NCBI GenBank assembly: GCA_034432495.1
Contig: DAOUCB010000168.1
Coordinates: 5,527-69,526, forward strand
Length of the DNA stretch: 64,000 nt
Origin: Anaerolineae bacterium
Lineage (GTDB): Bacteria; Chloroflexota; Anaerolineae; Aggregatilineales; Phototrophicaceae
Direction: 5' to 3'
A model generated the notes under the pieces. That model made no database searches. It saw nothing but the letters and a program-made list of their open reading frames with translations, and was not told where the DNA came from. The translations under genes and the position numbers were made by a program. Shown here in pieces: positions 26,847 through 39,916 of this stretch (position 1 is its first letter; every line of letters starts with the position of its first letter).

Positions 26847-26858
26847 GAGGGATTGTTG

Positions 26859-28085: not shown

Positions 28086-31000
28086 TTATTGCCACCGCAC
28101 CTCGAAACGGGTTTCCTCGTTTGCGACCAGTGTAAGCGGTACTTCAACCTGTGTCGTCGGCGCAGCTTCGAAATTCTGCTTTCCCGTCTGCACCGTGATA
28201 CGTGTCGCACTGGCGGGAACGGTGACATACAGCGTGCGCTCGCCGCTCACAATCGCCCGGTAGGCACCTGTGATGCTCCCTGGCGCGATGTCGAGGCGCA
28301 GCAGCGGCATATCCAGCGTGAACTGGTCGCGCGGCACATGCGGATCAATCAGCAGACCCTTTCCGTTGGGCGCTGGCTCGACGCCGCAAACGCGCAGCAG
28401 ACCCAGCAGCGGCATCGCGTGAGCATTGCTGTTCATTGCCGGGAAATCGATCATGGGCGTCGCTGCGCTTTGCCATGTGCCGCCGGGGTTCTCCTGCGAA
28501 GTTTTCGTGAACAGCGCGTCCGGCGCAGTCCAGATACCGACCCACGTTTCTGGGAAAATCTCCGCGTGAACGGCGAGCGTCTGCCGCAGCAGCGAACGCC
28601 ACGCCCATTCCGGTGCGCTGCGGCAGTAGCCCCACGTCAGCAGTTGTGAAATGGCAGGCCAGATCAACCCATTCGTCTGTGTAACCGCACCCGTTTTCGA
28701 AGGGAAATCCAGTAACTGTGTGATCGACTTGACCAACGCCTGATCGGTGCCGTGTTCACACGCTGTCCGGCTGATCAGTGCCCAGGGCTGCGCTTCCAGG
28801 TTGATCGCCTCATTATCAACGACCACCACCCCATTCAACTCGTCACGCAGCAGCGCCCGCGCATACCAGCGTCCATTCCACTGCTGGTGCAGCGCCACAT
28901 CCAGGCCAGAGACGAAGCCAGCTATCGCCTCGGCGAATTCGGGATCACGCTCCTGCAACAGCGCCTGTGTGATCGGCAGGACATACAGCGCCATCTGCGT
29001 ATTCGGAATCGACTCGCCGTAGCGCTTGGAATTGGCGAACCACTGTGGAAAGGTCGCGCCGCCATATTTGACGCAGTTCTCAAACACAATTCCATCCGAC
29101 CAGTCGCCATCCCCCATGCGGATCAGGCCGTGATCGCCGCGCCGCACTTCGTAAATCAGGTGGTTGATCGCGCAGCGAACGTGATCGAGCACCGTCGTAC
29201 CATGCGCGCCATTCGGCAGCACCGACGACAGTTCGGGTGGATAGAATGGCACTTCACCATCGAGAAAGGCCAGGTCGCCTGTCGCAGAAAGATATTCGTT
29301 CAGCGCCATCAGAAAAAACAGGTCGAGATCAGACGGCGTGTCGTGAATTACCGCATTGTCGACCAGCCCATGCCCGCTGAAGCCATACCACAGCGCCCCA
29401 TTCGCGCTGTCCATCAATGACATCACCAACCGCAGATTTGCCCGCGCCAGTTCCGGTCGCAGATAGACCAGCGGCAGCGTCGAGAGACACTGATCGCGCG
29501 GCACGCCATCCGCCCCGTGCAGATACAGATAGGCCGAACCCTGCGGCGTGACGTGCGTTTTAAAATACTCGTTGTAGACCGTCGCCGATTGCAGATAATA
29601 GGCGTGCCATGCCATTTCGCGCTTGAGCGTCGCATCGATGCCTGTGTGGAAATAAGGCAGGCACGTCTTCCAATCCTCGGCAGTCTTCGCCAGCACGTCC
29701 CACTTCGGGAATGGCGTGTGAAATTCCAGCGAAGCACCGGGCTGCACAGTCCCGTAAGCGTAGCGCTGGGCGGATTTCTCGCCGGGAGCCAGCTCAAAAT
29801 CGCGGCGCATGACCATGCAGAAGGGCATCGAATCGCTTACAGGCGCGTCAGCCATTGTCGGAAAACACTGCCGAACCGCCTGCGGCTGCGTCACATCGCC
29901 GTTGCCGAAGAAAGCCTGTTTGTTGACGTAAAAGGCATCTGGCCTGCCGCTTAAGTCGCTCAGGAAGATGTTCGCCGGTTCCACGTCGATGTCGCTGACC
30001 GCATCAGGATCAGCATCATGCATAAAATACTGGCGAAAGCGCAAGGCGTTCGCCGCGAGATCCCACTCGATCTTCGGCTCGAACAGGTCATTGATCGCCG
30101 CCCGTTCGCCGTCGAGCGCTGTCGCGAAGGCCTCGCCGCGCAGCCATTGCAGTTTCATTTGCTGGACGTTGACATCCCAGTACTCGTAGCCGCGAAAATC
30201 GACTTGCTCGCTGCCGACGTTCTCATATTCCACGTCCACCAGCAAAAATGGGTAGTCGCCCTGCGGCGCATGAACCCGACGCGTCATGCGGATGTTGTGA
30301 AAGGTCAGCCGCGTTTCGGCGTAACCCATGCCGAAGACGCGCTCGATCTCGATGCCCTGTTGGCGATAGCGAAAAGCGGTCGCCGTGACATCCCCCCGAC
30401 ATTCGAGATAACCGAAGCCACCCGCGTAAGCGAAACGGGCAGATGGATAGTCGAGCAGTTGCGCCGGAAGCGTCGCAGATACCGGGGGCTGCACGCCGCG
30501 TGCCTGAGCGCTGTCGGACGTAACGCTGTGATGCGCAGTCACCGAGCGCGGAATACCTGCCCACAATCGCCGCGCCGCGATCAAAATCTGTGTCGCCAGC
30601 GCGACCAGTAGTTTGAGCAGATTGTTCGCCAGCAGCGCCAAACCGCTGAGCGCGGGAACGTCTGGCCGCGCTGCGTCGCCGCGCGAAGCGAAATAGTTCA
30701 GAAATACGCCGCCGCGATCCCCCAGATAAACCTGTACTGTTCCGTCGTTCGAGGCCAACCCAGTCACCCGGTCGTTACCGATTTGATGCCAGTGATCACG
30801 CCGATCCAGATTGGCGCTGTTGGGAAAGCGTGCGCGTATGTCCGTGTATTGATCGAGCGTGTAGACGTAACAGGGCAAGCCGTTGGCATCCAGCGACCAT
30901 TCGCCGAAAATGCCGCTGCCTTCGCTGGTCGGTTGGAAACGACGCGGATCATCTGAGGCGGCCTGCGCCTCAAGCGGAATTGGTTTGGGGGAGCGCCTGA

Positions 31001-31088
31001 ACCAGCGCCGCAGCGTCAATATCAGCGAAGAGTGGTCAAGTTCGGCATCGCGCATCAGGACGCTGGGGGACGGCACATGGGCGGGCAT
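28086..31088 (-). CDS. 1000-aa (alpha/alpha)6-barrel glycoside phosphorylase/hydrolase-like protein (GH94-like)
   Basis: RMGDGDWSDGIVF resembles the catalytic xDWND(C/S) stretch of GH94 cellobiose/chitobiose phosphorylases. The N-terminal beta-sandwich-like region has an inserted hydrophobic segment (LSGLALLANNLLKLLVALATQILIAA). GAGGA lies upstream of the ATG. Confidence 0.5.
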   Translation of the reverse strand: MPAHVPSPSVLMRDAELDHSSLILTLRRWFRRSPKPIPLEAQAASDDPRRFQPTSEGSGIFGEWSLDANGLPCYVYTLDQYTDIRARFPNSANLDRRDHWHQIGNDRVTGLASNDGTVQVYLGDRGGVFLNYFASRGDAARPDVPALSGLALLANNLLKLLVALATQILIAARRLWAGIPRSVTAHHSVTSDSAQARGVQPPVSATLPAQLLDYPSARFAYAGGFGYLECRGDVTATAFRYRQQGIEIERVFGMGYAETRLTFHNIRMTRRVHAPQGDYPFLLVDVEYENVGSEQVDFRGYEYWDVNVQQMKLQWLRGEAFATALDGERAAINDLFEPKIEWDLAANALRFRQYFMHDADPDAVSDIDVEPANIFLSDLSGRPDAFYVNKQAFFGNGDVTQPQAVRQCFPTMADAPVSDSMPFCMVMRRDFELAPGEKSAQRYAYGTVQPGASLEFHTPFPKWDVLAKTAEDWKTCLPYFHTGIDATLKREMAWHAYYLQSATVYNEYFKTHVTPQGSAYLYLHGADGVPRDQCLSTLPLVYLRPELARANLRLVMSLMDSANGALWYGFSGHGLVDNAVIHDTPSDLDLFFLMALNEYLSATGDLAFLDGEVPFYPPELSSVLPNGAHGTTVLDHVRCAINHLIYEVRRGDHGLIRMGDGDWSDGIVFENCVKYGGATFPQWFANSKRYGESIPNTQMALYVLPITQALLQERDPEFAEAIAGFVSGLDVALHQQWNGRWYARALLRDELNGVVVVDNEAINLEAQPWALISRTACEHGTDQALVKSITQLLDFPSKTGAVTQTNGLIWPAISQLLTWGYCRSAPEWAWRSLLRQTLAVHAEIFPETWVGIWTAPDALFTKTSQENPGGTWQSAATPMIDFPAMNSNAHAMPLLGLLRVCGVEPAPNGKGLLIDPHVPRDQFTLDMPLLRLDIAPGSITGAYRAIVSGERTLYVTVPASATRITVQTGKQNFEAAPTTQVEVPLTLVANEETRFEVRWQ

Positions 31089-31212: not shown

Positions 31213-32157
31213 TTACCAGCTCACGAGGATGACCGAAATATCATCCTGTGTCGAGCGTCGGTTCGCGCTGTCCTGCGAGCGTGCGTAAGCGGCTTCGCCG
31301 AGGTCATCCGCGCCCGCCTCGCCGTGTGCCAGCCCCTCAATCACTTCGGCCTCAGCCAGATTCTTGTACAGCCCGTCGGAACAGAGCAGCAGCGTATCGC
31401 CCGAACCAATTTCGATGCGCGACGTCTGCGCAATCGGGTCTTCGTCGTGAACGCCCAGCGCGTTGATCACGATGTTGGCGGGTGGGATGTTCAGTACCGT
31501 GTTGCCCACCAGAAACCAGCGCCACGCTATATACAGGTCGTAGGGATTGCCGTTAATCGCAATCGTGCCTTCGGCTTGCGGCTCATCGACGCCGTTATAA
31601 GTGTTAAGAACTGTCCCGATGCGGTCACTGTCTTCGGCGCTCAGCAGCCCCAGCCGCACAAAATATTCGAGGTTATCTTCGTCCGGGCAAAGCTGTATCA
31701 GTTCGCCATCTGTGAAGAGATACCCGCGCGTGTCGCCCACCTGCACCGTCAGCAGCCGACTGCCATTTTCGCAGACGACCACCACCGTCACAACTGCCCC
31801 CACGCGATGCCCCGCCGGGAACTCGTCGCCGTTGTTGAGTTCCAGCCGCAACCGCTCGTGCGCTCGGTTGAGCGCGGCGATCACTTTTTGCTCTGCCTCG
31901 CCGTTTGCCGAGCCATCAATGTCCGGCGGCAGGCGCTGCAAATCCTCAATCAGCGTCGTTCGCACCAACTGCGAAGCATCGCGCCCCGTCATCAGTCGCC
32001 CATCCGCCGTTTCATGCTGCTGCCCGCCCATGCCGTCGATCACGGCGAAAACCGGGGCTTTACTGTCGCCATTACTGTTCCCGTCGAAGACCATCACCGC
32101 GTCTTCGCAGCGATCCGGATGCTCAATCGAAGCTCGGCTAAATTCCTGAATTTTCAA
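31213..32157 (-). CDS. PP2C-family Ser/Thr protein phosphatase
   Basis: PP2C metal-binding motifs: RCEDAVMVF, AVIDGMGGQQHE, LLLCSDGLY, QDDISVILV. The start is TTG in a TTGA overlap with the upstream stop. Confidence 0.85.
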   Translation of the reverse strand: MKIQEFSRASIEHPDRCEDAVMVFDGNSNGDSKAPVFAVIDGMGGQQHETADGRLMTGRDASQLVRTTLIEDLQRLPPDIDGSANGEAEQKVIAALNRAHERLRLELNNGDEFPAGHRVGAVVTVVVVCENGSRLLTVQVGDTRGYLFTDGELIQLCPDEDNLEYFVRLGLLSAEDSDRIGTVLNTYNGVDEPQAEGTIAINGNPYDLYIAWRWFLVGNTVLNIPPANIVINALGVHDEDPIAQTSRIEIGSGDTLLLCSDGLYKNLAEAEVIEGLAHGEAGADDLGEAAYARSQDSANRRSTQDDISVILVSW

Positions 32158-32762
32158 GGTTTGTCATCTCGTATCGCTTTGTACAGGCGCAGAAACACAC
32201 CGGGACGTTCGCCGCCCATCTGGCGCAAACGTTCCAGTTCCTCCTGGGTGATGTAAGGCGCAGGTTCGCCGCTCAGGTCCGGCACTTTCGGTTCGGGTGG
32301 TACGCTCGCCACGTTTTGAATCGTCACCGGGTCAGCCAGCGTATTCGACTGCACCACTGGCTGCTCTGTGGGCGCAGGCGAATGTTCAATCGCTGGGGCT
32401 GCCAGGGCGCTCGACTGAACAACAGGCGGCTCGATTTTGATTTCCTTGAAGCGATAGCCGCAGTATGAGCAGACCTTCGCCCCTTCGCGGCGCTGCGCGC
32501 CACACTGCGGACACCACTTCTGCGTCAGGTTGTGACTCCGTGCTTTACTGCTCAGCAGCTTACCATGAAACTTGCTTCCACACTGACTACAAACCTTCGC
32601 GCCCATCTTGTTCATAAAGCCGCAGTGGGAGCAGCGTTTCCGCAGCATCCCACTGGTATCTTCAAGAAAAAAAGCGTAGCCGCACTCGGTGCAGACCTTC
32701 GCCGCTGCGCGATTGCTGTGCCCACATTTCGGGCAGCGCTTTCGCTCGTGCTCGATGCTCAT
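32154..32762 (-). CDS. triple zinc-ribbon protein
   Basis: Three tandem CxxC-x(10-11)-CxxC ribbons (CPKCGHSN..CTECGYAF; CSHCGFMN..CSQCGSKF; CPQCGAQR..CSYCGYRF), then a Pro-rich linker and a short conserved-looking tail. ATGA overlap with the vWA gene. Confidence 0.75.
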   Translation of the reverse strand: MSIEHERKRCPKCGHSNRAAAKVCTECGYAFFLEDTSGMLRKRCSHCGFMNKMGAKVCSQCGSKFHGKLLSSKARSHNLTQKWCPQCGAQRREGAKVCSYCGYRFKEIKIEPPVVQSSALAAPAIEHSPAPTEQPVVQSNTLADPVTIQNVASVPPEPKVPDLSGEPAPYITQEELERLRQMGGERPGVFLRLYKAIRDDKP

Positions 32763-34015
32763 GAGCCGTCTGTATCCTCTTCGGTCAGGCTCACAGTCGA
32801 TGTGCCGAGTGCCGCCGTCTTACGCGCGACTTCGTTGCCCGTTCCTGCCGCTTCCAGCACCTCAGTCATTGAGCGATTGCCTACTGCCTGCGCGATTTCC
32901 AGCGCTTCGGTGCGATGCCGTTCCGCGCCAGCGGCATCACCCGCATTCAACGCCTCAGTCATAGCCTGCGTCGAAGCCGCCAACTGTCCCTGACCCAGAT
33001 AACCCGCGACAATGGGGTTGACCTGATTGATCTGCGCAGCGTCGTTCGTCTGCTGAAGAATCATCCAGGTCGATTGATCGCCCTTCTCCTCGACGCGCTG
33101 CCCGCCCGCCGCATACAGCACAGACGGCTTGCAGGCGACGACACGCGCTCCAACCGCTGCCAGTTCAATGTGAACGATAAAGTCACGGTGATCTTTCGAC
33201 GCCATCGGCGGCACAGGCACGACCCAGGTATGATCATCACCCAGCGGCGCGGCCTCGCCCTTGACCCAGTTCGGGTACGCCTGCGACAGCGACATAATCC
33301 GCGCGCCCGCGGGCGTCCACAGATGCAGCACCACATCGCTCGCGACGGTCTGCGACATCTTGACCACCAGCGCGTTGAATTCGGCTTGTAGGTCATCGGG
33401 GTTTGGGACGGCCTTCGGCATCCAGCCCTGCGTAATCTGCGCCATCTTCGTCAGTTGATCAGGATTCCAGTCATTGCCGAAGCCATAAGCGCACAGATGG
33501 ATGTGCATATCCGCCGCATCCTTGACCGCCCGCGCCAGCGTCGATTCCTGTTCAGTGTTCTGTCCATCGCTCAGGAAAATGCCGTAACGCGCCACGTCGC
33601 CGCGAATTTCCCGCTGTCCTTCGATAGCGACCCGGATGCCGGTTGACATCGACGTGCCACCGAACATCTTGACCTGCTTGAGCGTGCGCCGGAAGTTCGA
33701 GACCAGTTGATTGCGATCCGTCTGCATCGTGATTTGCGTCGGCGGAACAACTTCGCTGGCGTCGTTGTCGAACACCACTACTTGCAGAATGATGCCGCTC
33801 GGTGCGTTGAGCAGCAAATCCTCCAGCGTCGAAATCGCGGCATTGAATTTTGCGCCCTGCATCGAGCCGGAGACGTCGCAAATCAGCGAAATGACCGTTG
33901 ATTGCGCTGTCGGTGGCAGATCATTGGCAGTGACCGAGACGACGCCCCAGACCGAGTTCGTCGTCGGGCTGATATACGGGTTAAAGTAGGTTTTGAAGCT
34001 GAATGCGCTTGCCAT
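32759..34015 (-). CDS. vWA-domain protein (TerY-like N-terminal vWA plus extra C-terminal domain)
   Basis: MIDAS motif LICDVSGSMQG, then GGTSMSTG and IFLSDGQNT. 418 aa, about twice the size of a minimal vWA domain. Confidence 0.8.
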   Translation of the reverse strand: MASAFSFKTYFNPYISPTTNSVWGVVSVTANDLPPTAQSTVISLICDVSGSMQGAKFNAAISTLEDLLLNAPSGIILQVVVFDNDASEVVPPTQITMQTDRNQLVSNFRRTLKQVKMFGGTSMSTGIRVAIEGQREIRGDVARYGIFLSDGQNTEQESTLARAVKDAADMHIHLCAYGFGNDWNPDQLTKMAQITQGWMPKAVPNPDDLQAEFNALVVKMSQTVASDVVLHLWTPAGARIMSLSQAYPNWVKGEAAPLGDDHTWVVPVPPMASKDHRDFIVHIELAAVGARVVACKPSVLYAAGGQRVEEKGDQSTWMILQQTNDAAQINQVNPIVAGYLGQGQLAASTQAMTEALNAGDAAGAERHRTEALEIAQAVGNRSMTEVLEAAGTGNEVARKTAALGTSTVSLTEEDTDGS

Positions 34016-34051
34016 AATGTTTCTCGACTCCGTTAGAATTTCACCTCGATC

Positions 34052-36178
34052 TTAGACCAGCGCCCACGTTCGGGCTTTCATGATTCGTTCGTTGATGACC
34101 CATTCGCGGTTAGCCTCATCGTCGCGCGCCAGATACTCGCGCCAGGCGTGTTCGTTGGCCTTCGAAATATCGCCAATCGACTTCATCTGTTGATCCGGCC
34201 AGTTGATCGCTGGGATTTTTCCGGTCTTTTGTGCCACCGCGAAGGCCGTGAAGTAAAACTCTGCCAGCAGGCGATAGTAGGCGCGTGTTTCGACGCCGTT
34301 TTCACGCAGCGTCTCGACCGCGCGAGCAGCATTGTCAAGCGTGGTCGCGTCGCCTTCGTCGGCTTTCAGGTTGTACAGCGAAATCAATTCCAGCATCACG
34401 TCGTTATAGCTGGTGTTCCGGCTGCTGACATCTTCCAGCACCTTGATCGCGGCGTCAACCTGCTTGTCCGCCAGATAGGCTTTCGATGCGCCAATATAAG
34501 CCGCGCCCACCGACGGTTTCGCCTGAATGATCGCCTGATATTCGGCAATCGCCTGTTTGGTATTGCCGCTCCGGCGATACAGGTCTGCCAGCAGCAGCCG
34601 CGCTCGGTGATCACCTGGCTTGAGCGCCATCATGCGCCGATAGCGATCCGCCGCTTCCTGAAACCTGCCGCTGTTTTCCATAAACTGGCCTTCCGCCAGC
34701 AGCAGTTCCCACTGTGCCTGCGGATCAGCCGTTGACTGTGCTTGCTTCAGGTCGGCTTCGGCATCCTGTAACTTGCCGTTCTGCGTGTGAATCAACGAAC
34801 GCAGCAGATAGGCCGATGCGCCGCCGTTGTTCTTGACCGCCTGGTTCGCCAGCAGCAGCGCGCGTGTGTAATTATGCTGCTGATAGGCTTCCTGCGCCCC
34901 CAGCAGCACCGTCGAAGCTGGATTACTTGGCGCGATCTCCGGCAGTTCGATCTTGACTGTCCCAGTCACGACGCCCGTTTCTGTGCGTGTGCGAAGCTGC
35001 TCCAGCGTCACGCCCTGGAAACTGGCCTGCTCGCGCTGGCGTCTGAACGCCGTCATATCCGGCGTCTGTCCTTTGACATAGCCGATCACGCCGTCGATTT
35101 CCGCCATAATCTGATCGACATTCTGTGGACGCTGTTCGCGTTCCTGCGCTGTCAGCCACTCGACGAAATAGCGCAGCGAATCGTCATACTGAATCCAGGG
35201 GAACACGTCCGGCGGCGTCAGCGTATAGCGATACTGCTCGGTATGCACTTCCGCCATGCCGATCAGTTCCGCCAGCGTGCGCCCAATGGTGAAATAGTCG
35301 TCGCGCCAGTCCGGGTGCATCGCCTGAGGCGAATGATAACCGGGCGTACCGCGTGCGGGCTTCGGCGGCACGTTCGGGTCATAGCGATAAGCCGTGCCGA
35401 AGTCGAGCAGCACTTCAAGCTGTTCACCGCTTGCCAGCGTCAGCCGCTTGACATTCGACGGCTTGAAGTCGCAGTAAATGATCGGCGGCGTCAGGCTGTG
35501 CAGATACTTGAAAGCAGGCAGCAGCCCTTTGATGTGCAGCAGCGCCTGTTCGGCAGGCATCGGCAGCACCAGTTTGCGCGTGACAGGTTCTTCGATCTCA
35601 TCCGCCCAGCTTGGCCCGTCCACGAACTCCATCACGTAACACAGTTCGTTGCCGATCAGGAAGAAGTCGATCACCGCAACGATGTTCGGGTGACGAATGT
35701 TGATCAGTGTTTCCGCTTCTTTTTGCAGCGCGTCGCGCAAGCCTGGATCGTCCGCCACCACCGTCTTGATCACGACGGTTTTGTTCAGGTTGCGGTCATG
35801 CGCTTTCCAGGCGCGGCCCATGCCGCCCTGCCCCAGCAGCCCTTCGATGCCGTAGCGCTCGGCAATCACCAGCCCGACTTTGAGCGCACTCGGCGGGCCT
35901 TTCAGTTCGACTTCCTGCGGCGCAGGAACGACGTTCGTCAGCTTCTTGCCGCAATTCGGGCAGTGCCGCGCCCCCGGTCGCAGCTTGAAGCCGCAGAATG
36001 GGCAGGTCAGCTTATCCTGTGCCTGCACCGCACCGGTCGCCATTGCCATCGCCGCCGTCACCGGCTTGAGCGCAACCGTATTCAATTCAAGTCCGCATTC
36101 GTCGCAAAATCCGCTCGCCGTCGAGGTCATTTTGTGACAATGTGGACATTCAATCATGTCTGGAGCTTTGGTAGTCAC
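34052..36178 (-). CDS. Ser/Thr protein kinase with two N-terminal zinc ribbons and C-terminal TPR repeats
   Basis: Zinc ribbons CPHCHK..CDECG and CPFCGF..CPNCG. Gly-loop GQGGMG, VVIK lysine, catalytic loop IIYCDFKPSNV, LDFGTA. The C-terminal roughly 300 aa are TPR-like (AYLLRSLIHTQNGKLQDAEADLKQA...). Confidence 0.85.
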   Translation of the reverse strand: MTTKAPDMIECPHCHKMTSTASGFCDECGLELNTVALKPVTAAMAMATGAVQAQDKLTCPFCGFKLRPGARHCPNCGKKLTNVVPAPQEVELKGPPSALKVGLVIAERYGIEGLLGQGGMGRAWKAHDRNLNKTVVIKTVVADDPGLRDALQKEAETLINIRHPNIVAVIDFFLIGNELCYVMEFVDGPSWADEIEEPVTRKLVLPMPAEQALLHIKGLLPAFKYLHSLTPPIIYCDFKPSNVKRLTLASGEQLEVLLDFGTAYRYDPNVPPKPARGTPGYHSPQAMHPDWRDDYFTIGRTLAELIGMAEVHTEQYRYTLTPPDVFPWIQYDDSLRYFVEWLTAQEREQRPQNVDQIMAEIDGVIGYVKGQTPDMTAFRRQREQASFQGVTLEQLRTRTETGVVTGTVKIELPEIAPSNPASTVLLGAQEAYQQHNYTRALLLANQAVKNNGGASAYLLRSLIHTQNGKLQDAEADLKQAQSTADPQAQWELLLAEGQFMENSGRFQEAADRYRRMMALKPGDHRARLLLADLYRRSGNTKQAIAEYQAIIQAKPSVGAAYIGASKAYLADKQVDAAIKVLEDVSSRNTSYNDVMLELISLYNLKADEGDATTLDNAARAVETLRENGVETRAYYRLLAEFYFTAFAVAQKTGKIPAINWPDQQMKSIGDISKANEHAWREYLARDDEANREWVINERIMKARTWALV

Positions 36179-36277
36179 CGTATCTCCTTATCGTTTCTCT
36201 TGCTTACTTTGTGATGGCGATCAGCTTTCAGCAAATGCTTTTCGCTTTCGCTGATGGCTGACTGCTAATCGCTTCTT

Positions 36278-36811
36278 CTAGCTTTCGTGAAAGGTCAGTT
36301 CGATCTTGCCCAGCTTGATCAGGTCACCCTCTTTCAGAGGTTCGGCCTGCCCCTGTGCCAGCTTGATTTCGTTGACCCAGGTGTGATTCGAACTGCCCAG
36401 GTCTTCAATATAGTACTTGTCGTCCATCTTGACGATTTGCGCATGGCGATGACTGACAAATTTCCCGTCGGGGTAGCCGTCCAGGTCGATTTGCAGCGCC
36501 GGGTCTTCCCGACCTAGTACCGCAGCGGCTCCCAGCTTAAAAATCGATCCGGTGCTTTGCAGCAGCAAATGTGGCCCGGTATAAACCGCCGGCGCAGGAT
36601 CGTCAATCGGTGTTAAATTCTGTGCTGGAATGTCGGGCACGGCGTCAGCAGGCGGAACAGGCTCTACAATTGCGGCGCTCGAAGCGGGCGCGGACGCGTC
36701 ACGAACAGGAACCTGATAGTTCCCGCCATTCGTGGACGGCAGTTCGAAACCACATTCTTCGCAAAAGCGTGAACCTGCTTCATTCCAGTGTTGGCAATTT
36801 GGACATTGCAT
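36278..36811 (-). CDS. FHA-domain protein with N-terminal zinc ribbon
   Basis: MQCPNCQHWNEAGSRFCEECG, a Pro/Ala linker, then an FHA core (VLGRED..., VSHRHAQIV, YYIEDLGSSNHTWVN). GGAGG lies upstream of the ATG. Confidence 0.85.
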   Translation of the reverse strand: MQCPNCQHWNEAGSRFCEECGFELPSTNGGNYQVPVRDASAPASSAAIVEPVPPADAVPDIPAQNLTPIDDPAPAVYTGPHLLLQSTGSIFKLGAAAVLGREDPALQIDLDGYPDGKFVSHRHAQIVKMDDKYYIEDLGSSNHTWVNEIKLAQGQAEPLKEGDLIKLGKIELTFHES

Positions 36812-36987
36812 GATGTTATCCTCCCCAACAATGAATCTTATGAGAGATTCAACGAAACGATCCCCCCAATCTGTCGGGGATACGGCATAATCATTTCAGC
36901 AGATGATAGATAAGTTATAGTCCATTTGGAGCGGTTTTTCTACGCTACAAAATGACAGAAATTCCTTAGAGACAGGTGAGCACACCA

Positions 36988-38079
36988 ATGCGTATTCGAT
37001 GGGCAGTTTTGCTTTTGGCTTTGCTGACGGTCTGCGCCGCGCCCGTATTCGCGCAAACCGATTTCTGGACGTGTCCGAGCGGATTTGCGGGACAAACCCT
37101 GCACGTCTACAACTGGACGACCTATATTGCCGAAGACACCGTCTCAAACTTCGAGCGGCTCTGCGGCGTCCATGTCGAGTATGCGACCTATGCCAGCGAT
37201 ACCGACATGATTGCGGAATTGGAACAGGGCAATCCGGGCTACGATATTGTCGTCCCCACCGATGTCAATGTCACAACCATGATCAGCGAAGGGCTGCTGA
37301 ATCCGCTCAATCTGGCGAATATTCCCAATTTCGCCAATATCAGCGACCAGTTCAAAAATCCATTATACGACCCGAATAATGTTCATACCGTCGCCTACCA
37401 GTGGGGGACAATTGGCGTCGGCTACAATCGGACGAAGGTTGGCAAGGATATTGCCAGTTGGAACGATGTCTTCAACTACGACGGCCCCGTCGCCTGGATC
37501 GATTATCCGCGCCAGATGCTCGGCATTGTCCTCAAGCTGCTCGGCTACGATCCCAATACATCGGATACCACGCAGATCAAAGCTGCCAGCCAGTTCTTGA
37601 TCGACCACAGCAAGAATCTCTATGCCATCGCGCCGGACACTGGTCAGGATATGCTCGCTGCTGGGCAAGCGGACATTGTCATCGAGTACAGCGGTGACAT
37701 TTTCCAGGTCATCTCCGACTGCAAATGCAGCGATTTCGCCTACGTCATCCCCGATGAAGGCTCTGTCCTCTGGGTCGATAATCTGGCGATCCCGAAGGGT
37801 GCGCCCAATCAGGCGCTGGCAGAGGTCTTCATCGACTACATTCTCTTTGCTCAGGTCGGCGCAGACATCAGCAACTTTACCGCTTACGCCACACCCAATC
37901 AGACCGCCATCAATGACGGCTTGATCGAGTCTCAGTATCTTGATAACCCGGCGATTTATCCCAGCGCCGATGTTCAGGCGCGCCTCTTTTCCAATAAGGC
38001 CGACCCAACGCTCGACCAACTTTATACGGATGCCTGGAATACCATCAAGGCAGCAGTCGGCAAGGGGACAAGCTCATGA
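36988..38079 (+). CDS. PotD-like (spermidine/putrescine-type) periplasmic binding protein, orphan
   Basis: Signal peptide MRIRWAVLLLALLTVCAAPVFAQ. PotD-like core (LHVYNWTTYIAEDTVSNFE, GYDIVVPTD). No cognate permease or ATPase genes are adjacent. The track start at GTG 36976 is also possible. Confidence 0.75.
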   Translation: MRIRWAVLLLALLTVCAAPVFAQTDFWTCPSGFAGQTLHVYNWTTYIAEDTVSNFERLCGVHVEYATYASDTDMIAELEQGNPGYDIVVPTDVNVTTMISEGLLNPLNLANIPNFANISDQFKNPLYDPNNVHTVAYQWGTIGVGYNRTKVGKDIASWNDVFNYDGPVAWIDYPRQMLGIVLKLLGYDPNTSDTTQIKAASQFLIDHSKNLYAIAPDTGQDMLAAGQADIVIEYSGDIFQVISDCKCSDFAYVIPDEGSVLWVDNLAIPKGAPNQALAEVFIDYILFAQVGADISNFTAYATPNQTAINDGLIESQYLDNPAIYPSADVQARLFSNKADPTLDQLYTDAWNTIKAAVGKGTSS

Positions 38080-39518
38080 CGACCACCCAAATTCCAACCA
38101 CAGCACCCGTCGCCCGACCTGCCGCCGCGCGCCGTGCAATGACAACCCGCACGCGCCTGCTGCTGTTGGGCGCAGTCGGCATCGTGCTGGTATTGATCAC
38201 GCTGCTTCAGGCGCTCAACGCCTACAGCGTTTCCTACGAACTGTTTCGCAACCTGATCGAAGTCAACAGCACCACCGTTGATGCGTCCGAAAGCGCGTTA
38301 CAGGACATCGCGCAGGTTAGTCAGGCCGCTGCTGATTACGCGGTCTTGACCTCGGACACGCCGCTCTACGAGCAGTCGCAGAATAACATCTTCCGCGATT
38401 TCAGCAGCTTCCGCGACGAAATGTTCATTCTGCGCAGCAACCTGCAAAGCGACGAGGAACGCACCGCTTTTACGACGGCGGACACCTTCGCCTACAGTAG
38501 TTTCTGGCGTCACGTCAGCGATCTGGTATCGCAGCGCAGCGACGATACCGTCGCGCGCCAGCAGTATCTCGACGCCGACAACCACGTCCGCACCTGGATC
38601 AATCCGGCGCTTCAGCGGCTGGAAAATCTCAACTTTGAGCAGATGGTCGTGGCAGGTAATCAGGCAGGCAGCACCATTATCGCTCAGGTCGTTCTGCTAG
38701 CGATTCCGGCAGTCGCGCTGGCAATTCTGCTGACCTACCTGTCGTTTATGCTCCGCCGGAAAGTTCACCGCTACCTCACGCCCGGCATTGACATCGCCGT
38801 CGTCCTCAGTTGGGTGATCCTGCTGCTCATGCTCATCAATCTGGTCAATGCCCCCAACCAGTTGAATACCATGATTCAGGACTCGTATCGGAGCGTCAGC
38901 GCCAGTTCGCGCGTGCTGGTCGATGCCAATCTGGCGAACCGCGCCGAAAGCAGCCAACTGCTCGATCCCGAACGCGCTGACGCCTGGAATACGCTCTTCG
39001 ATAACGAAGCCCAGTTGGTCGAACTGCGTATGTGCGGCGCGGTCAACTGCACCCAGACATCATTCATCTCCGGCAGTTCGGATCAGCCAAGCAGCACAGT
39101 GGTCAACGCCGCAAACAACATCACGACGGATAATTCCGCCAAAATCGAAGGCATCGTCCCGTTGATCGCCAACGTGACCTTCTCCGGTGAGACGCAGGCA
39201 CTCGAACAGGCACGCGTCGCCTTCCAGCAGTTTCTCGCGGTCAACACACAGTTACGCGGTCTGGTTCAGGCCAACAACATGACCGATGCGGTCACGCTCA
39301 ATACCAGCAGCGACCCAGGCACAAGCCAGGACACCTTCAATCAGTTCGTCACCGCCATCAATCAGGTGCGCGATATTAATCACGCCGTCTTCGATGACGT
39401 CGGTCAGGCCGCCACCCAAACCCTGCAATCGAACCGTATTCTGTTCGGCTTGTTCGGTTACATCGCCATTGGCATCCTGCTCGTGGTCGGCGTCTATCAC
39501 CGCTATCGCGAACTCTAA
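38076..39518 (+). CDS. 4-TM membrane protein with two large extracytoplasmic helical domains, function unknown
   Basis: ATGA overlap with the SBP stop. Hydrophobic helices near residues 27-46, 200-225, 238-257 and 453-472. The first loop looks like a four-helix-bundle sensor module. No output domain. Confidence 0.6.
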   Translation: MTTTQIPTTAPVARPAAARRAMTTRTRLLLLGAVGIVLVLITLLQALNAYSVSYELFRNLIEVNSTTVDASESALQDIAQVSQAAADYAVLTSDTPLYEQSQNNIFRDFSSFRDEMFILRSNLQSDEERTAFTTADTFAYSSFWRHVSDLVSQRSDDTVARQQYLDADNHVRTWINPALQRLENLNFEQMVVAGNQAGSTIIAQVVLLAIPAVALAILLTYLSFMLRRKVHRYLTPGIDIAVVLSWVILLLMLINLVNAPNQLNTMIQDSYRSVSASSRVLVDANLANRAESSQLLDPERADAWNTLFDNEAQLVELRMCGAVNCTQTSFISGSSDQPSSTVVNAANNITTDNSAKIEGIVPLIANVTFSGETQALEQARVAFQQFLAVNTQLRGLVQANNMTDAVTLNTSSDPGTSQDTFNQFVTAINQVRDINHAVFDDVGQAATQTLQSNRILFGLFGYIAIGILLVVGVYHRYREL

Positions 39519-39534
39519 TCCGCAGCGCATCATC

Positions 39535-39558
39535 GTAGGGCGCGGCTGTGCGCCCTAC
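39535..39558. terminator. GC hairpin terminator (GTAGGGCGC-ggctgt-GCGCCCTAC)
   Basis: Perfect 9-bp stem, followed by TTTGCTCT on the plus strand. Lies between the convergent stops at 39518 (+) and 39596 (-). Confidence 0.6.
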
Positions 39559-39595: not shown

Positions 39596-39916
39596 TTAAT
39601 CCGTATGGAAAATTTCTTCCAGCGCCAGCATATTCTCGTCGGGCCGCCCACTGATCGACTCGAAATACGGCTCCATAAACTTCTGCCACATCTCGTTGAT
39701 CGCCTCGGTTTCCATGCCCTTCAGCGAAGCTTCGAAACTCTCTGCTGCTTCGAAATAGCCGAACAACGTCCCATCCTCGCGCAGAAAAATCGAGTAATTG
39801 TGCCACCCCTGACGGCGCAGCGCGTCGAGCATCTCCGGCCAGACTGCCTCGTGATGTTTCTTGTATTCCTCGATTTTGTCGGGCTTCACTTTCAGCAGAA
39901 AACCCACTCGTTTCAT
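39596..39916 (-). CDS. rhaM: L-rhamnose mutarotase
   Basis: 106 aa from MKRVGFLLKVKPDKIEEYKKHHEAVWPEMLDALRRQGWHNYSIF..., matching RhaM along its whole length. The track start at 40000 adds 28 implausible residues. Confidence 0.85.
   Translation of the reverse strand: MKRVGFLLKVKPDKIEEYKKHHEAVWPEMLDALRRQGWHNYSIFLREDGTLFGYFEAAESFEASLKGMETEAINEMWQKFMEPYFESISGRPDENMLALEEIFHTD

What the first reader, a model, noticed from the sequence alone, without database searches (positions are those of the whole stretch)
31213..36811. FHA - Ser/Thr kinase - vWA - triple zinc ribbon - PP2C operon: an expanded TerY-P-like phosphorylation module
Seen: five minus-strand genes with 99-nt and 36-nt gaps and two 4-nt overlaps. 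All have clear motifs: an FHA core, kinase GQGGMG/VVIK/LDFGTA, vWA MIDAS CDVSGSMQG, and PP2C IDGMGG/CSDGLY/DDISVILV.

Established knowledge, from memory: the TerY-P triad (vWA TerY + PP2C + Ser/Thr kinase) was defined by comparative genomics of tellurite-resistance-associated genes. It was later listed among anti-phage systems validated in a 2020 large-scale screen.

This locus has the triad plus three additions: an FHA phosphothreonine reader, a stand-alone triple zinc-ribbon protein and a TPR array on the kinase. The vWA protein is also about twice TerY size. That combination is not the canonical triad and may be a distinct variant.
Basis: partly seen in the sequence, partly recalled or inferred. 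Interest (0 to 1): 0.75.

Follow-up and report, generated by a model that had tools for sequence, protein, structure and literature searches.

The report
PknG-type nutrient sensor with ArnAB-like switch
The five genes are real, but they look less like a TerY-P anti-phage system than like the cytoplasmic half of a conserved seven-gene signalling pathway in a Chloroflexota bacterium, joining a PknG/GlnX-type solute sensor (known from Actinobacteria) to an FHA/vWA phospho-switch of the kind known from the archaeal ArnA/ArnB pair.

Summary
In detail: five minus-strand genes at the stated coordinates, with the stated spacing and motifs. The TerY-P/defence interpretation is not supported as family membership.

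- **vWA protein:** it has the ArnB/4FX5 three-part fold (β-sandwich, vWA domain, helical bundle).
- **Kinase:** its five best PDB hits are all PknG, aligned through the TPR domain.
- **FHA protein:** it has the ArnA layout, a C-x2-C-x10-C-x2-C zinc ribbon followed by FHA.
- **Neighbours:** a PotF/PotD-like solute-binding protein and a 4-TM protein of the GlnX family lie divergently upstream. They stay next to the operon in related genomes through a rearrangement. In distant high- and low-GC lineages they sit inside the same operon as a PknG-type kinase, ZnR-PP2C, vWA and ZnR-FHA.

Best reading (inferred): a periplasmic solute is sensed by the SBP and passed through the GlnX-like protein to the kinase's TPR domain. 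The kinase phosphorylates the invariant Thr-rich tail of the vWA protein, the FHA protein binds that tail, and the PP2C resets the switch. The triple zinc-ribbon protein probably replaces the ZnR domain that is fused to the PP2C elsewhere.

I found no description of this combination in the held literature. I rate it a new variant of known kinds, of moderate interest.

The parts
36278..36811 (-). ZnR-FHA protein (177 aa), ArnA-like: N-terminal C-x2-C-x10-C-x2-C zinc ribbon (C3..C20), a Pro/Ala-rich linker, and a C-terminal FHA domain (residues 98-168)
   Evidence: Pfam FHA 4.7e-16 and DZR/Zn_Ribbon_1. PDB hits are GarA/OdhI at about 1e-3, ArnA 5A8I at 6e-3 and 8S05_C at 8e-3. The motifs that contain the pThr-binding residues (GRED 100-103, SHRHA 120-124, SSNHT 140-144) are conserved across orthologues.
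34052..36178 (-). PknG-like Ser/Thr kinase (708 aa): two N-terminal zinc ribbons (C11..C28, C59..C76), a kinase domain (about 105-370) and a PknG-type TPR domain (about 409-628)
   Evidence: Pfam Pkinase 3.9e-24 and PknG_TPR 3.1e-13, 49.7 bits against a cut-off of 27. The top five PDB hits are all PknG; 2PZI is aligned over residues 99-624, E=6e-24. The catalytic motifs are invariant in 11 orthologues.
32759..34015 (-). ArnB/4FX5-type vWA protein (418 aa): two N-terminal β-strands, a vWA domain with an intact MIDAS, a β-sandwich (about 223-322), a helical bundle (about 334-403) and a disordered Thr-rich tail (397-418)
   Evidence: 4FX5 matches full length, phmmer 1.2e-20 and profile 2e-29. The AF2 model has pLDDT 76.9. 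Foldseek gives 4FX5 TM 0.77, ArnB 8S05 TM 0.63/0.69, ArnE 5A8J, then a gap in E-value. D47, S49, S51, T121, D150 and tail residues K399, T400, T407, T411 are invariant.
32154..32762 (-). Triple zinc-ribbon protein (202 aa): three C-x2-C-x10-C-x2-C ribbons, a Pro/Gln-rich linker and a conserved C-terminal motif GEPAPY[IL]xxEELxRLR (165-180). Probably a detached, expanded targeting domain of the PP2C
   Evidence: Pfam Zn_Ribbon_1 2.8e-18, three stretches. It overlaps the PP2C start by 4 nt. [quoted passage not shown]
31213..32157 (-). PP2C-type Ser/Thr phosphatase (314 aa) with no zinc ribbon of its own
   Evidence: Pfam PP2C_2 9.9e-9, NCBIfam Stp1 family 6e-22 below cut-off. The nearest solved structures are PstP 1.3e-10 and PppA. 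DGMGG, GDTR, SDG and DD are conserved in 13 orthologues.
36812..36975 (.). 164-nt divergent intergenic region between the FHA gene and the SBP gene; a possible shared regulatory region
   Evidence: Coordinates, sequence. There is a good RBS before the FHA gene (GGGGAGGA). The consensus scan found no promoter-like site inside this spacer.
36976..38079 (+). Periplasmic solute-binding protein (367 aa), PotF/PotD-like, with a signal peptide and a lipobox-like Cys20. It occupies the position of GlnH
   Evidence: Pfam SBP_bac_8 3.2e-26. NCBIfam PotF 3.1e-55 and PotD 3.1e-45, both below cut-off. The hydrophobic N-terminus is shown. It stays next to the module in 8 of 12 related loci.
38076..39518 (+). 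GlnX-family 4-TM signal-transduction membrane protein (480 aa): TM 28-46, 201-219, 238-256 and 455-473, two periplasmic helical-bundle domains, and a cytoplasmic tail HRYREL
   Evidence: NCBIfam NF058618 'GlnX family' 1.4e-22, 80.5 bits against a cut-off of 250. Hydropathy is. hhalign against the GlnX-like proteins of distant clusters gives 98.3% probability, E=1.8e-14. The AF2 model has pLDDT 89.9 and is all-α with two bundles. It overlaps the SBP gene by 4 nt.
39535..39558 (+). Terminator-like hairpin (10-bp stem, 7 G-C pairs, T-rich tail) just after the GlnX-like gene
   Evidence: This is a consensus scan only.

Best explanation
The five genes are the cytoplasmic part of a seven-gene transmembrane Ser/Thr-phosphorylation pathway that senses an extracytoplasmic solute.

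**Proposed steps (all inferred unless marked shown)**
1. A lipoprotein-like solute-binding protein of the PotF/PotD type binds a periplasmic ligand. A polyamine-like ligand is suggested only by family resemblance.
2. The SBP signals to the two periplasmic helical bundles of a GlnX-family 4-TM protein.
3. The short cytoplasmic termini of that protein, which ends ...HRYREL, engage the TPR domain of the soluble PknG-like kinase.
4. The kinase phosphorylates threonines in the invariant C-terminal tail of the ArnB-type vWA protein (K-T400-A-A-L-G-T-S-T407-V-S-L-T411-E-E; both T400 and T407 have Leu at +3).
5. The ZnR-FHA protein is pre-docked through its zinc ribbon, as ArnA is on ArnB. Its FHA domain then clamps onto the phospho-tail and changes what the vWA protein's MIDAS face and helical bundle can bind.
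6. The PP2C resets the switch. It is brought to the same hub by the separately encoded triple zinc-ribbon protein.

The downstream target is unknown.

**Shown here**
- Domain identities and folds.
- Conservation of catalytic and binding residues.
- Gene order, and its conservation across lineages.

**Inferred**
- Every protein-protein contact.
- The phospho-acceptor sites.
- The ligand.
For: **Kinase is PknG-like**
- The five best PDB hits are PknG. The alignment to M. tuberculosis PknG runs through the TPR (99-624, E=6e-24); the next best hits are CaMKs at 1e-16.
- Pfam PknG_TPR scores above its threshold.

**GlnX-like neighbour**
- NF058618, 1.4e-22.
- Four TM segments, an 18-residue TM2-3 spacer, a 27-residue N-terminal and a 7-residue C-terminal cytoplasmic segment. 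Published GlnX has 4 TMH, an 11-residue loop, and termini of 35 and 6 residues (PMC9769921; PMC6069109).
- The AF2 model shows two helical bundles continuous with the TM helices, pLDDT 89.9.
- The tail ends in RE[LY]. The C-terminal E437/Y438 of M. smegmatis GlnX are required for function (bioRxiv 10.64898/2026.07.02.735984).

**Linkage**
- The GlnX-like gene adjoins the module in 9 of 12 related loci, with the SBP gene beside it in 8. The pair is divergent from the FHA gene in the window and L002, and convergent after the PP2C in L003-L008 and L010.
- In distant lineages (locus GC 37-72%) the genes lie in one co-directional cluster: PknG-type STK, ZnR-PP2C, vWA, ZnR-FHA, GlnX-like (+ SBP-like lipoprotein in L016-L019).

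**vWA is ArnB-type**
- Foldseek ranks 4FX5, then ArnB (8S05), then ArnE at ranks 1-4.
- The MIDAS is intact.

**vWA-FHA partnership**
- P0148 is a natural fusion of vWA, VWA_3_C and FHA.
- ArnA-ArnB precedent: the ZnF docks on the β-sandwich and helical bundle, and the FHA domain binds pThr in the C-terminal region (PMC12852372; PMC6509490).

**Zinc ribbons**
- All six ribbons of the operon have ArnA's C-x2-C-x10-C-x2-C spacing.
- In distant systems the kinase, PP2C and FHA protein each carry N-terminal ribbons.

**Tail**
- It is nearly invariant in 26 orthologues.
- 49 of 107 wide-family members carry G[TS]x[RK][LIVMF] near the C-terminus, commonly GTVRL. The motif is 10 times denser there than elsewhere in the same proteins.

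**Enzymes look active**
- Catalytic motifs are invariant.

**Conservation fits a core regulatory module**
- vWA 66-84% and STK 67-76% identity, higher than the flanking SBP (59-65%).
Against: - No interaction or phosphorylation was tested.
- The GlnX-family score (80.5 bits) is far below NCBI's curated cut-off of 250 and covers only model positions 131-411. The canonical GlnX equivalog model does not match the window protein at all.
- Pfam PknG_rubred is not detected in the window kinase. It has two ordinary ribbons instead.
- The SBP belongs to a different family from GlnH.
- The FHA protein has no GarA-like ETTS motif, so the PknG substrate logic may differ.
- Sequence similarity to ArnA and ArnB themselves is weak (E 6e-3 and 1e-5; for ArnB only the vWA domain aligns).
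- The Nostoc plasmid version of the module has no GlnX-like gene within 8 kb, so the sensor is not universal.
- The vWA model is only moderately confident (pLDDT 76.9).
- The output of the pathway is unknown.
Confidence: 0.6

Rival explanations
1. A TerY-P-like anti-phage defence module. The kinase and phosphatase toggle a TerY-type vWA protein in response to infection, and the FHA protein and zinc ribbons are extra sensors or adaptors.
For: - The vWA + PP2C + STK gene set is the composition of the TerY-P triad (PMC11090510; PMC4978471).
- The kinase domain hits PADLOC kinase models PD-T4-6 and mad6. These are generic Hanks-kinase matches.
- JGI labels the orthologues 'YegL'. From memory, that is the COG name for TerY-type vWA.
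Against: - The vWA protein is ArnB/4FX5-type, not TerY-type.
- No TerY hit on 72,556 plasmids.
- Only a 32-residue MIDAS match to E. coli YegL, and no match of the PP2C to PphC.
- The kinase architecture is PknG-like, not kinase plus a C-terminal ZnR or OB fold.
- No nuclease, helicase, restriction or other effector gene nearby. The neighbours are GH94-like, GH42, rhamnose mutarotase, an SBP and a GlnX-like protein.
- Gene order is conserved and identity is high across an order-level clade, unlike the island-like, decaying TerY-P clusters described in H. pylori.
- The PADLOC result itself is uninformative, because the E. coli triad also gave no TerY-P hit.
Confidence: 0.07
2. A self-contained cytoplasmic FHA/STK/PP2C/vWA regulatory module whose input is not the neighbouring SBP/GlnX-like pair. 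The kinase would be activated by another cue, for example redox at its zinc sites or autophosphorylation, as proposed for the Deinococcus DRA0331-0334 operon. The sensor genes would be syntenic neighbours only.
For: - A four-gene vWA/STPK/FHA/PP2C operon is described in Deinococcus radiodurans with FHA-versus-phosphatase antagonism (bioRxiv 10.64898/2026.01.23.701218).
- The Nostoc plasmid module has no GlnX-like gene.
- The window's GlnX-like protein scores below the NCBIfam cut-off.
- In the window the sensor genes are on the other strand.
Against: - The adjacency survives a rearrangement that moves the pair from one end of the operon to the other.
- In three independent distant lineages the GlnX-like gene is co-directional with, and abuts, the FHA gene.
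- The kinase's TPR is specifically PknG-type, the domain proposed to bind GlnX.
Confidence: 0.2
3. A housekeeping cell-envelope or cell-division module of the FhaA/FhaB-PknB-PstP type.
For: - The FHA protein's best NCBIfam hit is FhaB/FipA, 3e-11, far below cut-off.
- The PP2C's best solved relative is PstP.
- The kinase's best NCBIfam hit is the PknB/Stk1 model, 1.3e-22, kinase domain only, 80.6 bits against a cut-off of 450.
Against: - The kinase has no TM segment and no PASTA domain.
- No rodA, pbpA or fhaA-like genes are adjacent.
- PknG outranks every other kinase in the PDB.
Confidence: 0.04
4. A vWA-centred 'biological conflict' system of the kind catalogued in multicellular or filamentous prokaryotes, for example the kinase-ZnR/PP2C/vWA theme next to GAP1-N2 GTPase systems.
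For: - Kaur et al. 2020 describe an actinobacterial theme with an active kinase fused to a zinc ribbon, a PP2C and a stand-alone vWA protein (PMC7159879).
- A MoxR/vWA cassette lies 3 kb away in the window.
Against: - No DO-GTPase, GAP1, FNIII-repeat or effector gene is in the operon or its conserved neighbours.
- That kinase type is described with a β-rich domain or TM helices, not a PknG TPR.
- The MoxR cassette is on the other strand, beyond a GH94-like gene. tblastn probes for two of its genes (DUF5682 and VWA_CoxE) and for the GH94-like gene gave no hit in any related locus.
Confidence: 0.04

Closest known systems
ArnA-ArnB motility-repression module of Sulfolobus acidocaldarius (PDB 8S05, 5A8I, 5A8J)
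   Same: - A small protein with an N-terminal C-x2-C-x10-C-x2-C zinc ribbon and a C-terminal FHA domain.
- A roughly 400-aa partner built from a β-sandwich split by a MIDAS-bearing vWA domain, followed by a C-terminal helical bundle with threonines.
- Both are controlled by a Hanks kinase and a phosphatase, and ArnAB is linked to nutrient status.
- ArnB ranks 2-3 and ArnE (the ArnB paralogue vWA2) rank 4 in the fold search, behind only the bacterial 4FX5.
   Different: - Bacterial, not archaeal.
- Sequence similarity to ArnA and ArnB is marginal.
- Kinase and phosphatase are encoded in the same operon. The phosphatase is a PP2C, not PP2A.
- There are extra zinc ribbons on the kinase and on a separate protein.
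- The candidate phospho-sites lie in a disordered tail after the bundle.
- The output cannot be archaellum control.
GlnH-GlnX-PknG-GarA/OdhI nutrient-sensing pathway of Actinobacteria
   Same: - A soluble kinase with N-terminal Cys4 metal site(s), a kinase core and a PknG-type TPR.
- An adjacent 4-TM protein with two periplasmic helical bundles and a conserved C-terminal RE[YL] tail.
- An adjacent lipoprotein-like SBP.
- An FHA protein as the phospho-dependent partner.
   Different: - Found in Chloroflexota, whereas PknG orthologues are described as mostly restricted to Actinobacteria (PMC8546545).
- The SBP is PotF/PotD-like, not an amino-acid binder.
- The GlnX-like protein is below the family cut-off.
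- The FHA protein has a zinc ribbon instead of the ETTS pseudo-substrate.
- The operon adds an ArnB-type vWA protein, a PP2C and a triple zinc-ribbon protein, none of which belongs to the canonical three-gene pknG operon.
Caci_2163 (PDB 4FX5) family of bacterial vWA proteins with Pfam VWA_3_C
   Same: - Full-length homology: profile E=2e-29, TM 0.77.
- Members sampled here sit next to a PknG-type STK, PP2C and/or ZnR-FHA genes.
   Different: - The window's subfamily does not reach the VWA_3_C model.
- Its tail motif is (K-T-A-A-L-G-T-S-T-V-S-L-T-E-E instead of G-T-V-R-L...S-T-R-T-x-R).
- 4FX5 is a structural-genomics entry with no known function.
Deinococcus radiodurans DRA0331-DRA0334 operon (vWA, STPK, FHA, FHA-PP2C)
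   Same: The same four domain types in one operon. Experiments show the FHA protein promoting, and the PP2C opposing, kinase phosphorylation.
   Different: - That kinase is described as transmembrane, not PknG-like.
- That PP2C carries its own FHA domain.
- No SBP/GlnX-like pair and no zinc-ribbon protein are reported.
- I could not fetch those sequences, so homology of the vWA proteins is untested.
TerY-P triad (TerY vWA + PP2C + STK), including E. coli YegL-PphC-YegI
   Same: The same three domain types are adjacent. The general idea of a phosphorylation switch on a vWA protein is the same.
   Different: - Different vWA architecture and size.
- Different kinase architecture.
- No specific sequence similarity.
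- No ter, restriction or DNA-processing context.
- Conserved, not island-like, distribution.

Membership tests
TerY-P triad | Stand-alone TerY-type vWA protein (about 200-220 aa, vWA domain only) | tested here: not met
   The protein is 418 aa with a β-sandwich and a helical bundle. No TerY hit on 72,556 plasmids at E<=1e-3. BLASTP against E. coli YegL matches only 32 residues at the MIDAS. Pfam vWA-TerF-like scores 18.4 bits against a cut-off of 29.4.
TerY-P triad | Ser/Thr kinase fused at its C-terminus to a zinc ribbon (or OB fold) | tested here: not met
   The ribbons are N-terminal (C11..C76) and the C-terminus is a PknG-type TPR. The definition is taken from PMC11090510.
TerY-P triad | PP2C phosphatase gene adjacent to the vWA and kinase genes | tested here: met
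   A PP2C lies at 31213-32157 in the same operon. However, it shows no similarity to the E. coli triad phosphatase PphC.
TerY-P triad | Association with ter genes, restriction or DNA-processing modules, or defence islands, with patchy distribution | tested here: not met
   The neighbours are a GH94-like gene, GH42, rhamnose mutarotase, an SBP and a GlnX-like protein. Order and sequence are conserved in 12 related genomes.
TerY-P triad | Recognition by defence-system HMMs (PADLOC/DefenseFinder TerY-P models) | tested here: inconclusive
   The vWA, PP2C and FHA proteins got no PADLOC hit. The positive control, E. coli YegL/PphC/YegI, also got none, so this library copy cannot decide.
TerY-P triad | Anti-phage activity | not testable with these tools
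   Needs phage plating assays.
ArnA/ArnB-type FHA-vWA phospho-switch | vWA partner with the three-part fold: β-sandwich split by the vWA domain, plus a C-terminal helical bundle | tested here: met
   The AF2 model places strands 5-30, the vWA domain, strands 223-322 and helices 334-403. Foldseek gives 4FX5 E=3e-34, ArnB 8S05 E=2e-22 with TM 0.63/0.69, and ArnE 5A8J E=4e-20; the next hit is at 1e-16.
ArnA/ArnB-type FHA-vWA phospho-switch | Intact MIDAS in the vWA domain | tested here: met
   D47-x-S49-x-S51, T121 and D150 are invariant in 26 orthologues, and the D-x-S-x-S triad and T121 are invariant in the wide alignment as well.
ArnA/ArnB-type FHA-vWA phospho-switch | FHA partner with an N-terminal RanBP2-type Cys4 zinc ribbon and a C-terminal FHA domain that keeps the pThr-binding residues | tested here: met
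   The ribbon C3-x2-C6-x10-C17-x2-C20 has the same spacing as ArnA C21/C24/C35/C38. The FHA domain scores 4.7e-16, and GRED, SHRHA and SSNHT are conserved.
ArnA/ArnB-type FHA-vWA phospho-switch | Phosphorylated threonines in the C-terminal region of the vWA protein that are bound by the FHA domain | not testable with these tools
   Candidate sites exist: T400, T405, T407 and T411 are invariant or nearly so, and there is a family-wide G-T-V-R-L motif. Phosphorylation and binding were not measured.
ArnA/ArnB-type FHA-vWA phospho-switch | Sequence-level orthology to ArnA and ArnB | tested here: inconclusive
   ArnB scores E=1.1e-5 (single sequence) and 4e-8 (profile), over the vWA domain only. 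ArnA scores E=6e-3. These are homologous domains; orthology is not shown.
GlnH-GlnX-PknG pathway | Kinase with PknG architecture: soluble, kinase core followed by a PknG-type TPR, usually preceded by a rubredoxin-like Cys4 domain | tested here: met
   PknG takes the top five PDB places, with the alignment running through the TPR. PknG_TPR scores 49.7 bits, above its cut-off of 27. PknG_rubred itself is not detected, but four CxxC pairs precede the kinase domain. Lisa et al. accept 'two CxxCG motifs' as an Rdx domain.
GlnH-GlnX-PknG pathway | Adjacent GlnX: 4 TM helices, two periplasmic four-helix bundles, short cytoplasmic termini and a conserved C-terminal tail | tested here: inconclusive
   Topology and fold match. 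NF058618 scores E=1.4e-22, but 80.5 bits is below the cut-off of 250, and the canonical equivalog NF041460 gives no hit. hhalign links the protein at 98.3% probability to GlnX-like proteins that score about 1e-50. It is best described as a divergent member of the wider family.
GlnH-GlnX-PknG pathway | Adjacent lipoprotein SBP (GlnH, an amino-acid binder) | tested here: not met
   An SBP is adjacent and overlaps the GlnX-like gene by 4 nt, but it is PotF/PotD-like (SBP_bac_8), not a GlnH orthologue. The distant clusters use yet another SBP type, with weak NMT1/SsuA-like matches. The position is the same but the family differs.
GlnH-GlnX-PknG pathway | FHA substrate of the GarA/OdhI type with an N-terminal ETTS phospho-motif | tested here: not met
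   The FHA domain resembles GarA/OdhI only at about 1e-3. The N-terminus is a zinc ribbon and there is no ETTS motif.
FhaA/PknB/PstP cell-envelope module | Transmembrane PASTA kinase linked to rodA/pbpA and FhaA/FhaB | tested here: not met
   The kinase has no TM or PASTA domain, and no such neighbours are present. The NCBIfam PknB_PASTA hit covers the kinase domain only, 80.6 bits against a cut-off of 450.

The most novel reading that the evidence does not exclude
The seven-gene arrangement seen here and in distant lineages is close to the ancestral form of PknG signalling. In it, an SBP/GlnX/PknG sensor acts on an ArnB/Sec23-24-like vWA hub. The kinase, the phosphatase and the FHA reader are all recruited to that hub through interchangeable C-x2-C-x10-C-x2-C zinc ribbons. 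On this view the three-gene pknG operon plus GarA of Corynebacteriales is a reduced derivative, and archaeal ArnAB is a sister of the hub-and-reader pair.
Probability: 0.2. Interest if true: 0.75.

Novelty: new variant of a known kind. Interest (0 to 1): 0.55.

Why it matters
Two signalling systems that have been studied separately appear here joined in one conserved gene set. One is the actinobacterial GlnH-GlnX-PknG nutrient sensor. The other is the archaeal ArnA-ArnB FHA/vWA switch.

If the model holds, it would do four things:
- Extend PknG/GlnX-type sensing well outside Actinobacteria, and to a different ligand class.
- Give the large bacterial 4FX5/VWA_3_C family of vWA proteins, whose function is unknown, a concrete role as a phospho-regulated hub.
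- Offer a compact system for studying how GlnX passes a signal to the PknG TPR, and how ArnB-type proteins act downstream. Both questions are open in their sections. Here the sensor, kinase, phosphatase, substrate and reader are encoded together.
- Suggest that small RanBP2-type zinc ribbons act as a common docking tag in bacterial Ser/Thr signalling.

It also shows that the gene set vWA + PP2C + kinase is not enough on its own to call a TerY-P defence system.

Tried and rejected
- **PADLOC as a TerY-P test.** The window's vWA, PP2C and FHA proteins gave no hits. The E. coli YegL/PphC/YegI control gave none either, so I dropped this test as uninformative.
- **The paper that defined TerY-P** (Anantharaman 2012, PMC4104200) is not held. 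I took the definitions from PMC11090510 and PMC4978471.
- **The GAP1-N2 'kinase-ZnR/PP2C/vWA' theme** of Kaur et al. 2020 was read and rejected as the same system. No GTPase, GAP1 or FNIII genes are present, and the kinase type differs.
- **FhaA/PknB/PstP type** was rejected because the kinase has no PASTA or TM domain and no cell-wall genes are nearby.
- **The second word-indexed homology search**, run with a diverse alignment, was again dominated by the close family and added only four distant proteins. The distant contexts came from look-ups of representatives instead.
- **Foldseek of the GlnX-like model** found no significant whole-chain match. The best was E=0.017, to an unrelated TTYH channel. 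Only local matches to four-helix-bundle sensor domains appeared. This is expected, because no GlnX structure is solved.
- **The Deinococcus ficus plasmid hit** is a 619-aa vWA protein in an unrelated context and was not pursued.
- **The roughly 400-aa helical protein** encoded upstream of the kinase in distant clusters has no counterpart in the window (tblastn).
- **The promoter scan** found nothing above shuffled expectation.

Full report
**1. Observation**

- 36811..36278, 177 aa
- 36178..34052, 708 aa
- 34015..32759, 418 aa
- 32762..32154, 202 aa
- 32157..31213, 314 aa

They are separated by 99 nt and 36 nt and joined by two 4-nt overlaps. Pfam confirms FHA, Pkinase with TPR, VWA, three zinc ribbons and PP2C. 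Every quoted motif is at the quoted residue, including D237 and D259 of the kinase and the MIDAS at 46-54.

Three things were missed. The FHA protein begins with a zinc ribbon. The kinase begins with two. The kinase's TPR array passes the gathering threshold of Pfam's PknG_TPR model (49.7 bits against 27).

The window comes from a Chloroflexota bacterium of the Anaerolineae, Aggregatilineales/Phototrophicaceae group.

**2. The five genes are a conserved unit**

Twelve genome loci from related species carry FHA-STK-vWA-ZnR3-PP2C in the same order, as far as each contig reaches.

| Protein | Identity to the window |
|---|---|
| vWA | 66-84% |
| Kinase | 67-76% |
| PP2C | 50-71% |
| FHA | 49-71% |
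| Triple-ribbon protein | 32-53% |
| Flanking SBP | 59-65% |
| Flanking GlnX-like protein | 51-59% |

The vWA and kinase genes are better conserved than either flanking gene. The catalytic motifs of the kinase (G-loop, VIK, CDFKPSN, DFG) and of the PP2C (DGMGG, GDTR, SDG, DD) are invariant. So are the FHA motifs that carry the phosphothreonine-binding residues.

**3. TerY-P was tested and is not supported as a family assignment**

- PADLOC gave no hit for the vWA, PP2C or FHA proteins, and only generic kinase hits. The E. coli K-12 triad YegL/PphC/YegI, fetched as a positive control, also gave no TerY-P hit. That test is therefore uninformative.
- tblastn of the vWA protein against 72,556 plasmids found no TerY at E<=1e-3.
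- BLASTP against YegL aligns only 32 residues around the MIDAS.
- The PP2C does not align with PphC.
- The TerY-P kinase is described as carrying a C-terminal zinc ribbon or OB fold (PMC11090510). This one has N-terminal ribbons and a C-terminal TPR.
- TerY-P clusters are described alongside DNA-processing genes, and in H. pylori as an accessory genomic island with internal deletions and gene disruption (PMC4978471). Here the neighbours are a GH94-like gene, a GH42 β-galactosidase, a rhamnose mutarotase, an SBP and a membrane protein.

**4. What the vWA protein is**

- It matches PDB 4FX5 (Caci_2163 of Catenulispora) over its full length: E=1.2e-20 with the single sequence and 2e-29 with a profile.
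- It matches ArnB of Sulfolobus (8S05_A) in the vWA domain.
- An AlphaFold2 model (pLDDT 76.9) shows two N-terminal strands, the vWA domain, a β-sandwich, a helical bundle and a disordered tail.
- Foldseek ranks 4FX5 first (TM 0.77), then ArnB (both 8S05 copies) and its paralogue ArnE, then a clear gap in E-value, from about 1e-20 to 1e-16.

This is the three-part fold described for ArnB (PMC6509490; PMC12852372), and it explains the 'twice TerY size'.

An exhaustive profile search found 7,178 representatives at E<=1e-3 and 821 at E<=1e-10. Most of the 150 best are 410-450-aa proteins matched from end to end, and the members examined carry Pfam VWA_3_C.

**5. The FHA partner and the zinc ribbons**

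The FHA protein has ArnA's layout. Its ribbon has ArnA's Cys spacing, C-x2-C-x10-C-x2-C, and so do all six ribbons encoded in the operon. In the ArnAB crystal structure the ribbon docks on the β-sandwich and helical bundle of ArnB, and the FHA domain binds phosphothreonines in ArnB's C-terminal region.

Three observations carry that logic over to this locus:
- A natural fusion protein, P0148, joins the vWA, VWA_3_C and FHA domains in one chain.
- The vWA tail A-R-K-T-A-A-L-G-T-S-T-V-S-L-T-E-E is almost invariant in 26 orthologues. In the wide family, 49 of 107 full-length members have G[TS]x[RK][LIVMF] (commonly GTVRL) near the C-terminus, ten times the density found elsewhere in the same proteins. 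T400 and T407 both have Leu at +3. From memory, that is a common FHA preference.
- In distant versions of the module the kinase, the PP2C and the FHA protein each start with zinc ribbons. In the window's clade the PP2C has none, but the triple-ribbon gene overlaps its start codon by 4 nt.

I therefore read the 'stand-alone triple zinc-ribbon protein' as a detached and multiplied version of the phosphatase's targeting domain. This is an inference. The ribbon count varies between orthologues from three to two, and in one locus (L012) only one was recovered. A C-terminal motif, GEPAPY[IL]xxEELxRLR, is conserved.

**6. The kinase and its neighbours change the picture**

The kinase's five best PDB hits are all PknG. 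The M. tuberculosis alignment runs from the kinase domain through the TPR (residues 99-624, E=6e-24); the next best hits are CaM kinases at 1e-16.

PknG is controlled in Actinobacteria by the lipoprotein SBP GlnH and the 4-TM protein GlnX, which is thought to bind the TPR (PMC6069109; PMC8546545; PMC9769921).

Two overlapping plus-strand genes lie divergently upstream of the FHA gene:
- **A PotF/PotD-like SBP** with a signal peptide (36976-38079).
- **A 480-aa protein** (38076-39518) with TM segments at 28-46, 201-219, 238-256 and 455-473.

The evidence on the 480-aa protein is as follows:
- It matches NCBIfam NF058618, 'GlnX family signal transduction membrane protein', at E=1.4e-22. The score is well below the curated cut-off, 80.5 against 250 bits.
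- Its AlphaFold2 model is confident (pLDDT 89.9, pTM 0.84). It consists of two helical bundles continuous with the TM helices, as described for GlnX.
- Its invariant tail ...H-R-Y-R-E-L recalls the conserved C-terminal E437/Y438 of M. smegmatis GlnX, whose mutation abolishes function (bioRxiv 10.64898/2026.07.02.735984).

**7. Linkage of sensor and operon**

The GlnX-like gene adjoins the module in nine of the twelve related loci, and the SBP gene lies beside it in eight. The pair sits at the FHA end in the window and L002, and at the PP2C end in L003-L008 and L010.

Distant vWA relatives at about 26% identity, in loci with GC from 37% to 72%, sit in co-directional clusters. Each cluster contains, in order:
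1. A kinase with PknG_rubred, Pkinase and PknG_TPR.
2. A ZnR-PP2C.
3. The vWA protein.
4. A ZnR-FHA protein.
5. A 458-488-aa 4-TM protein. It scores NF058618 at 2e-50 and 3e-51 in L016 and L017, and carries Pfam 'Sensor_actino' in L021/L022.
6. In L016-L019, an SBP-like lipoprotein.

A profile-profile comparison links the window's GlnX-like family to those proteins at 98.3% probability, E=1.8e-14.

A Nostoc plasmid carries the four-gene core (vWA, ZnR-FHA, PP2C, STK-TPR) with no GlnX-like gene nearby. The sensor is therefore frequent but not universal.

**8. Mechanism proposed**

The pathway would run: SBP, then the GlnX-like transducer, then the TPR of the PknG-like kinase, then phosphorylation of the vWA tail, then an FHA clamp on a hub already pre-docked through ribbons, with the PP2C resetting the switch. 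The MIDAS face or the helical bundle would control an unknown target.

Only the domain identities, folds, residue conservation and gene linkage are shown here. All contacts, the phospho-sites and the ligand are inferred. I put this reading at about 0.6.

The main rival (0.2) keeps the cytoplasmic switch but denies that the neighbouring sensor is its input. The defence, PknB-type and GTPase-conflict readings are each below 0.1.

**9. Comparison with what is known, and novelty**

The parts are known kinds:
- PknG/GlnX/SBP sensing.
- The ArnA/ArnB switch.
- Bacterial PP2C.
- A vWA/STPK/FHA/PP2C operon, recently described in Deinococcus.

The published view is that PknG orthologues are mostly restricted to Actinobacteria, with isolated homologues in Ktedonobacter and Calothrix.

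Full-text searches of the held library found no paper linking PknG or GlnX to a vWA/FHA/PP2C set, or describing ArnAB-like pairs with dedicated kinase, phosphatase and sensor in bacteria. The library is incomplete, so this is absence of evidence only.

I classify the locus as a new variant of known kinds, and not as a member of TerY-P.

Noticed in passing
window 20497-28064 (+ strand): Five co-directional genes: SWIM zinc finger, DUF5691, an AAA_5 MoxR-like ATPase, DUF5682 (E=2e-267) and VWA_CoxE. This is a MoxR/vWA cassette of unknown function and a second vWA gene, about 3 kb from the operon, on the other strand beyond the GH94-like gene. tblastn probes for its last two genes (DUF5682, VWA_CoxE) found nothing in any related locus.
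   Followed up: partly
L016 3552-4742; L021 2720-3943; probably L023 3-1181: In the distant clusters a protein of about 400 aa with no Pfam hit is encoded immediately upstream of the PknG-type kinase. The L016 and L021 copies are 27% identical (E=5e-27). It has no counterpart in the window. It may be a further component of the system in those lineages.
   Followed up: partly
window 32154-32762 (residues 165-180 of the 202-aa protein): The triple zinc-ribbon protein ends in a conserved motif, L-x-G-E-P-A-P-Y-[IL]-x-x-E-E-L-x-R-L-R, after a variable Pro/Gln-rich linker. The ribbon count varies between orthologues from three to two; one locus (L012) yielded only one, possibly a truncated ORF call. 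The motif's partner is unknown.
   Followed up: partly
window 38076-39518 (residues C320 and C325): Two invariant cysteines (R-M-C-G-A-V-N-C) lie in an insertion (about 321-371) in the second periplasmic bundle of the GlnX-like protein. This could be a disulfide or a ligand site.
   Followed up: no
window 36278-36811 (residues 63-68 of the FHA protein): The otherwise variable linker between the ribbon and the FHA domain keeps a short Q-x-L-T-P motif in 7 of 10 full-length sequences.
   Followed up: no
proteins P0166, P0180, P0184, P0191, P0186, P0205, P0223: Members of the same vWA family with N-terminal extensions of 190-470 residues that have no Pfam match. These are uncharacterised fusions.
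   Followed up: no
L014 (Nostoc linckia NIES-25 plasmid3, AP018225) 7728-13630: A conjugative plasmid carries the four-gene core: vWA, ZnR-FHA, a 595-aa PP2C with an uncharacterised 350-residue N-terminus, and STK-TPR. It follows a run of nine hypothetical genes, one of them with an ARC6-like IMS domain. No GlnX-like gene is nearby.
   Followed up: partly
L013 (E. coli K-12 yegI, pphC, yegL): The PADLOC-DB 2.0.0 copy used here returns no TerY-P-type hit for the E. coli YegL/PphC/YegI triad. Negative PADLOC results for TerY-P in this setting should not be relied on.
   Followed up: yes
window 28086-31088 and 39596-42059 (- strand): The system is flanked by carbohydrate-metabolism genes: a 1000-aa GH94-like protein, an L-rhamnose mutarotase and a GH42 β-galactosidase. 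The tblastn probes for the GH94-like gene, the mutarotase and the GH42 gene found nothing in any related locus.
   Followed up: no
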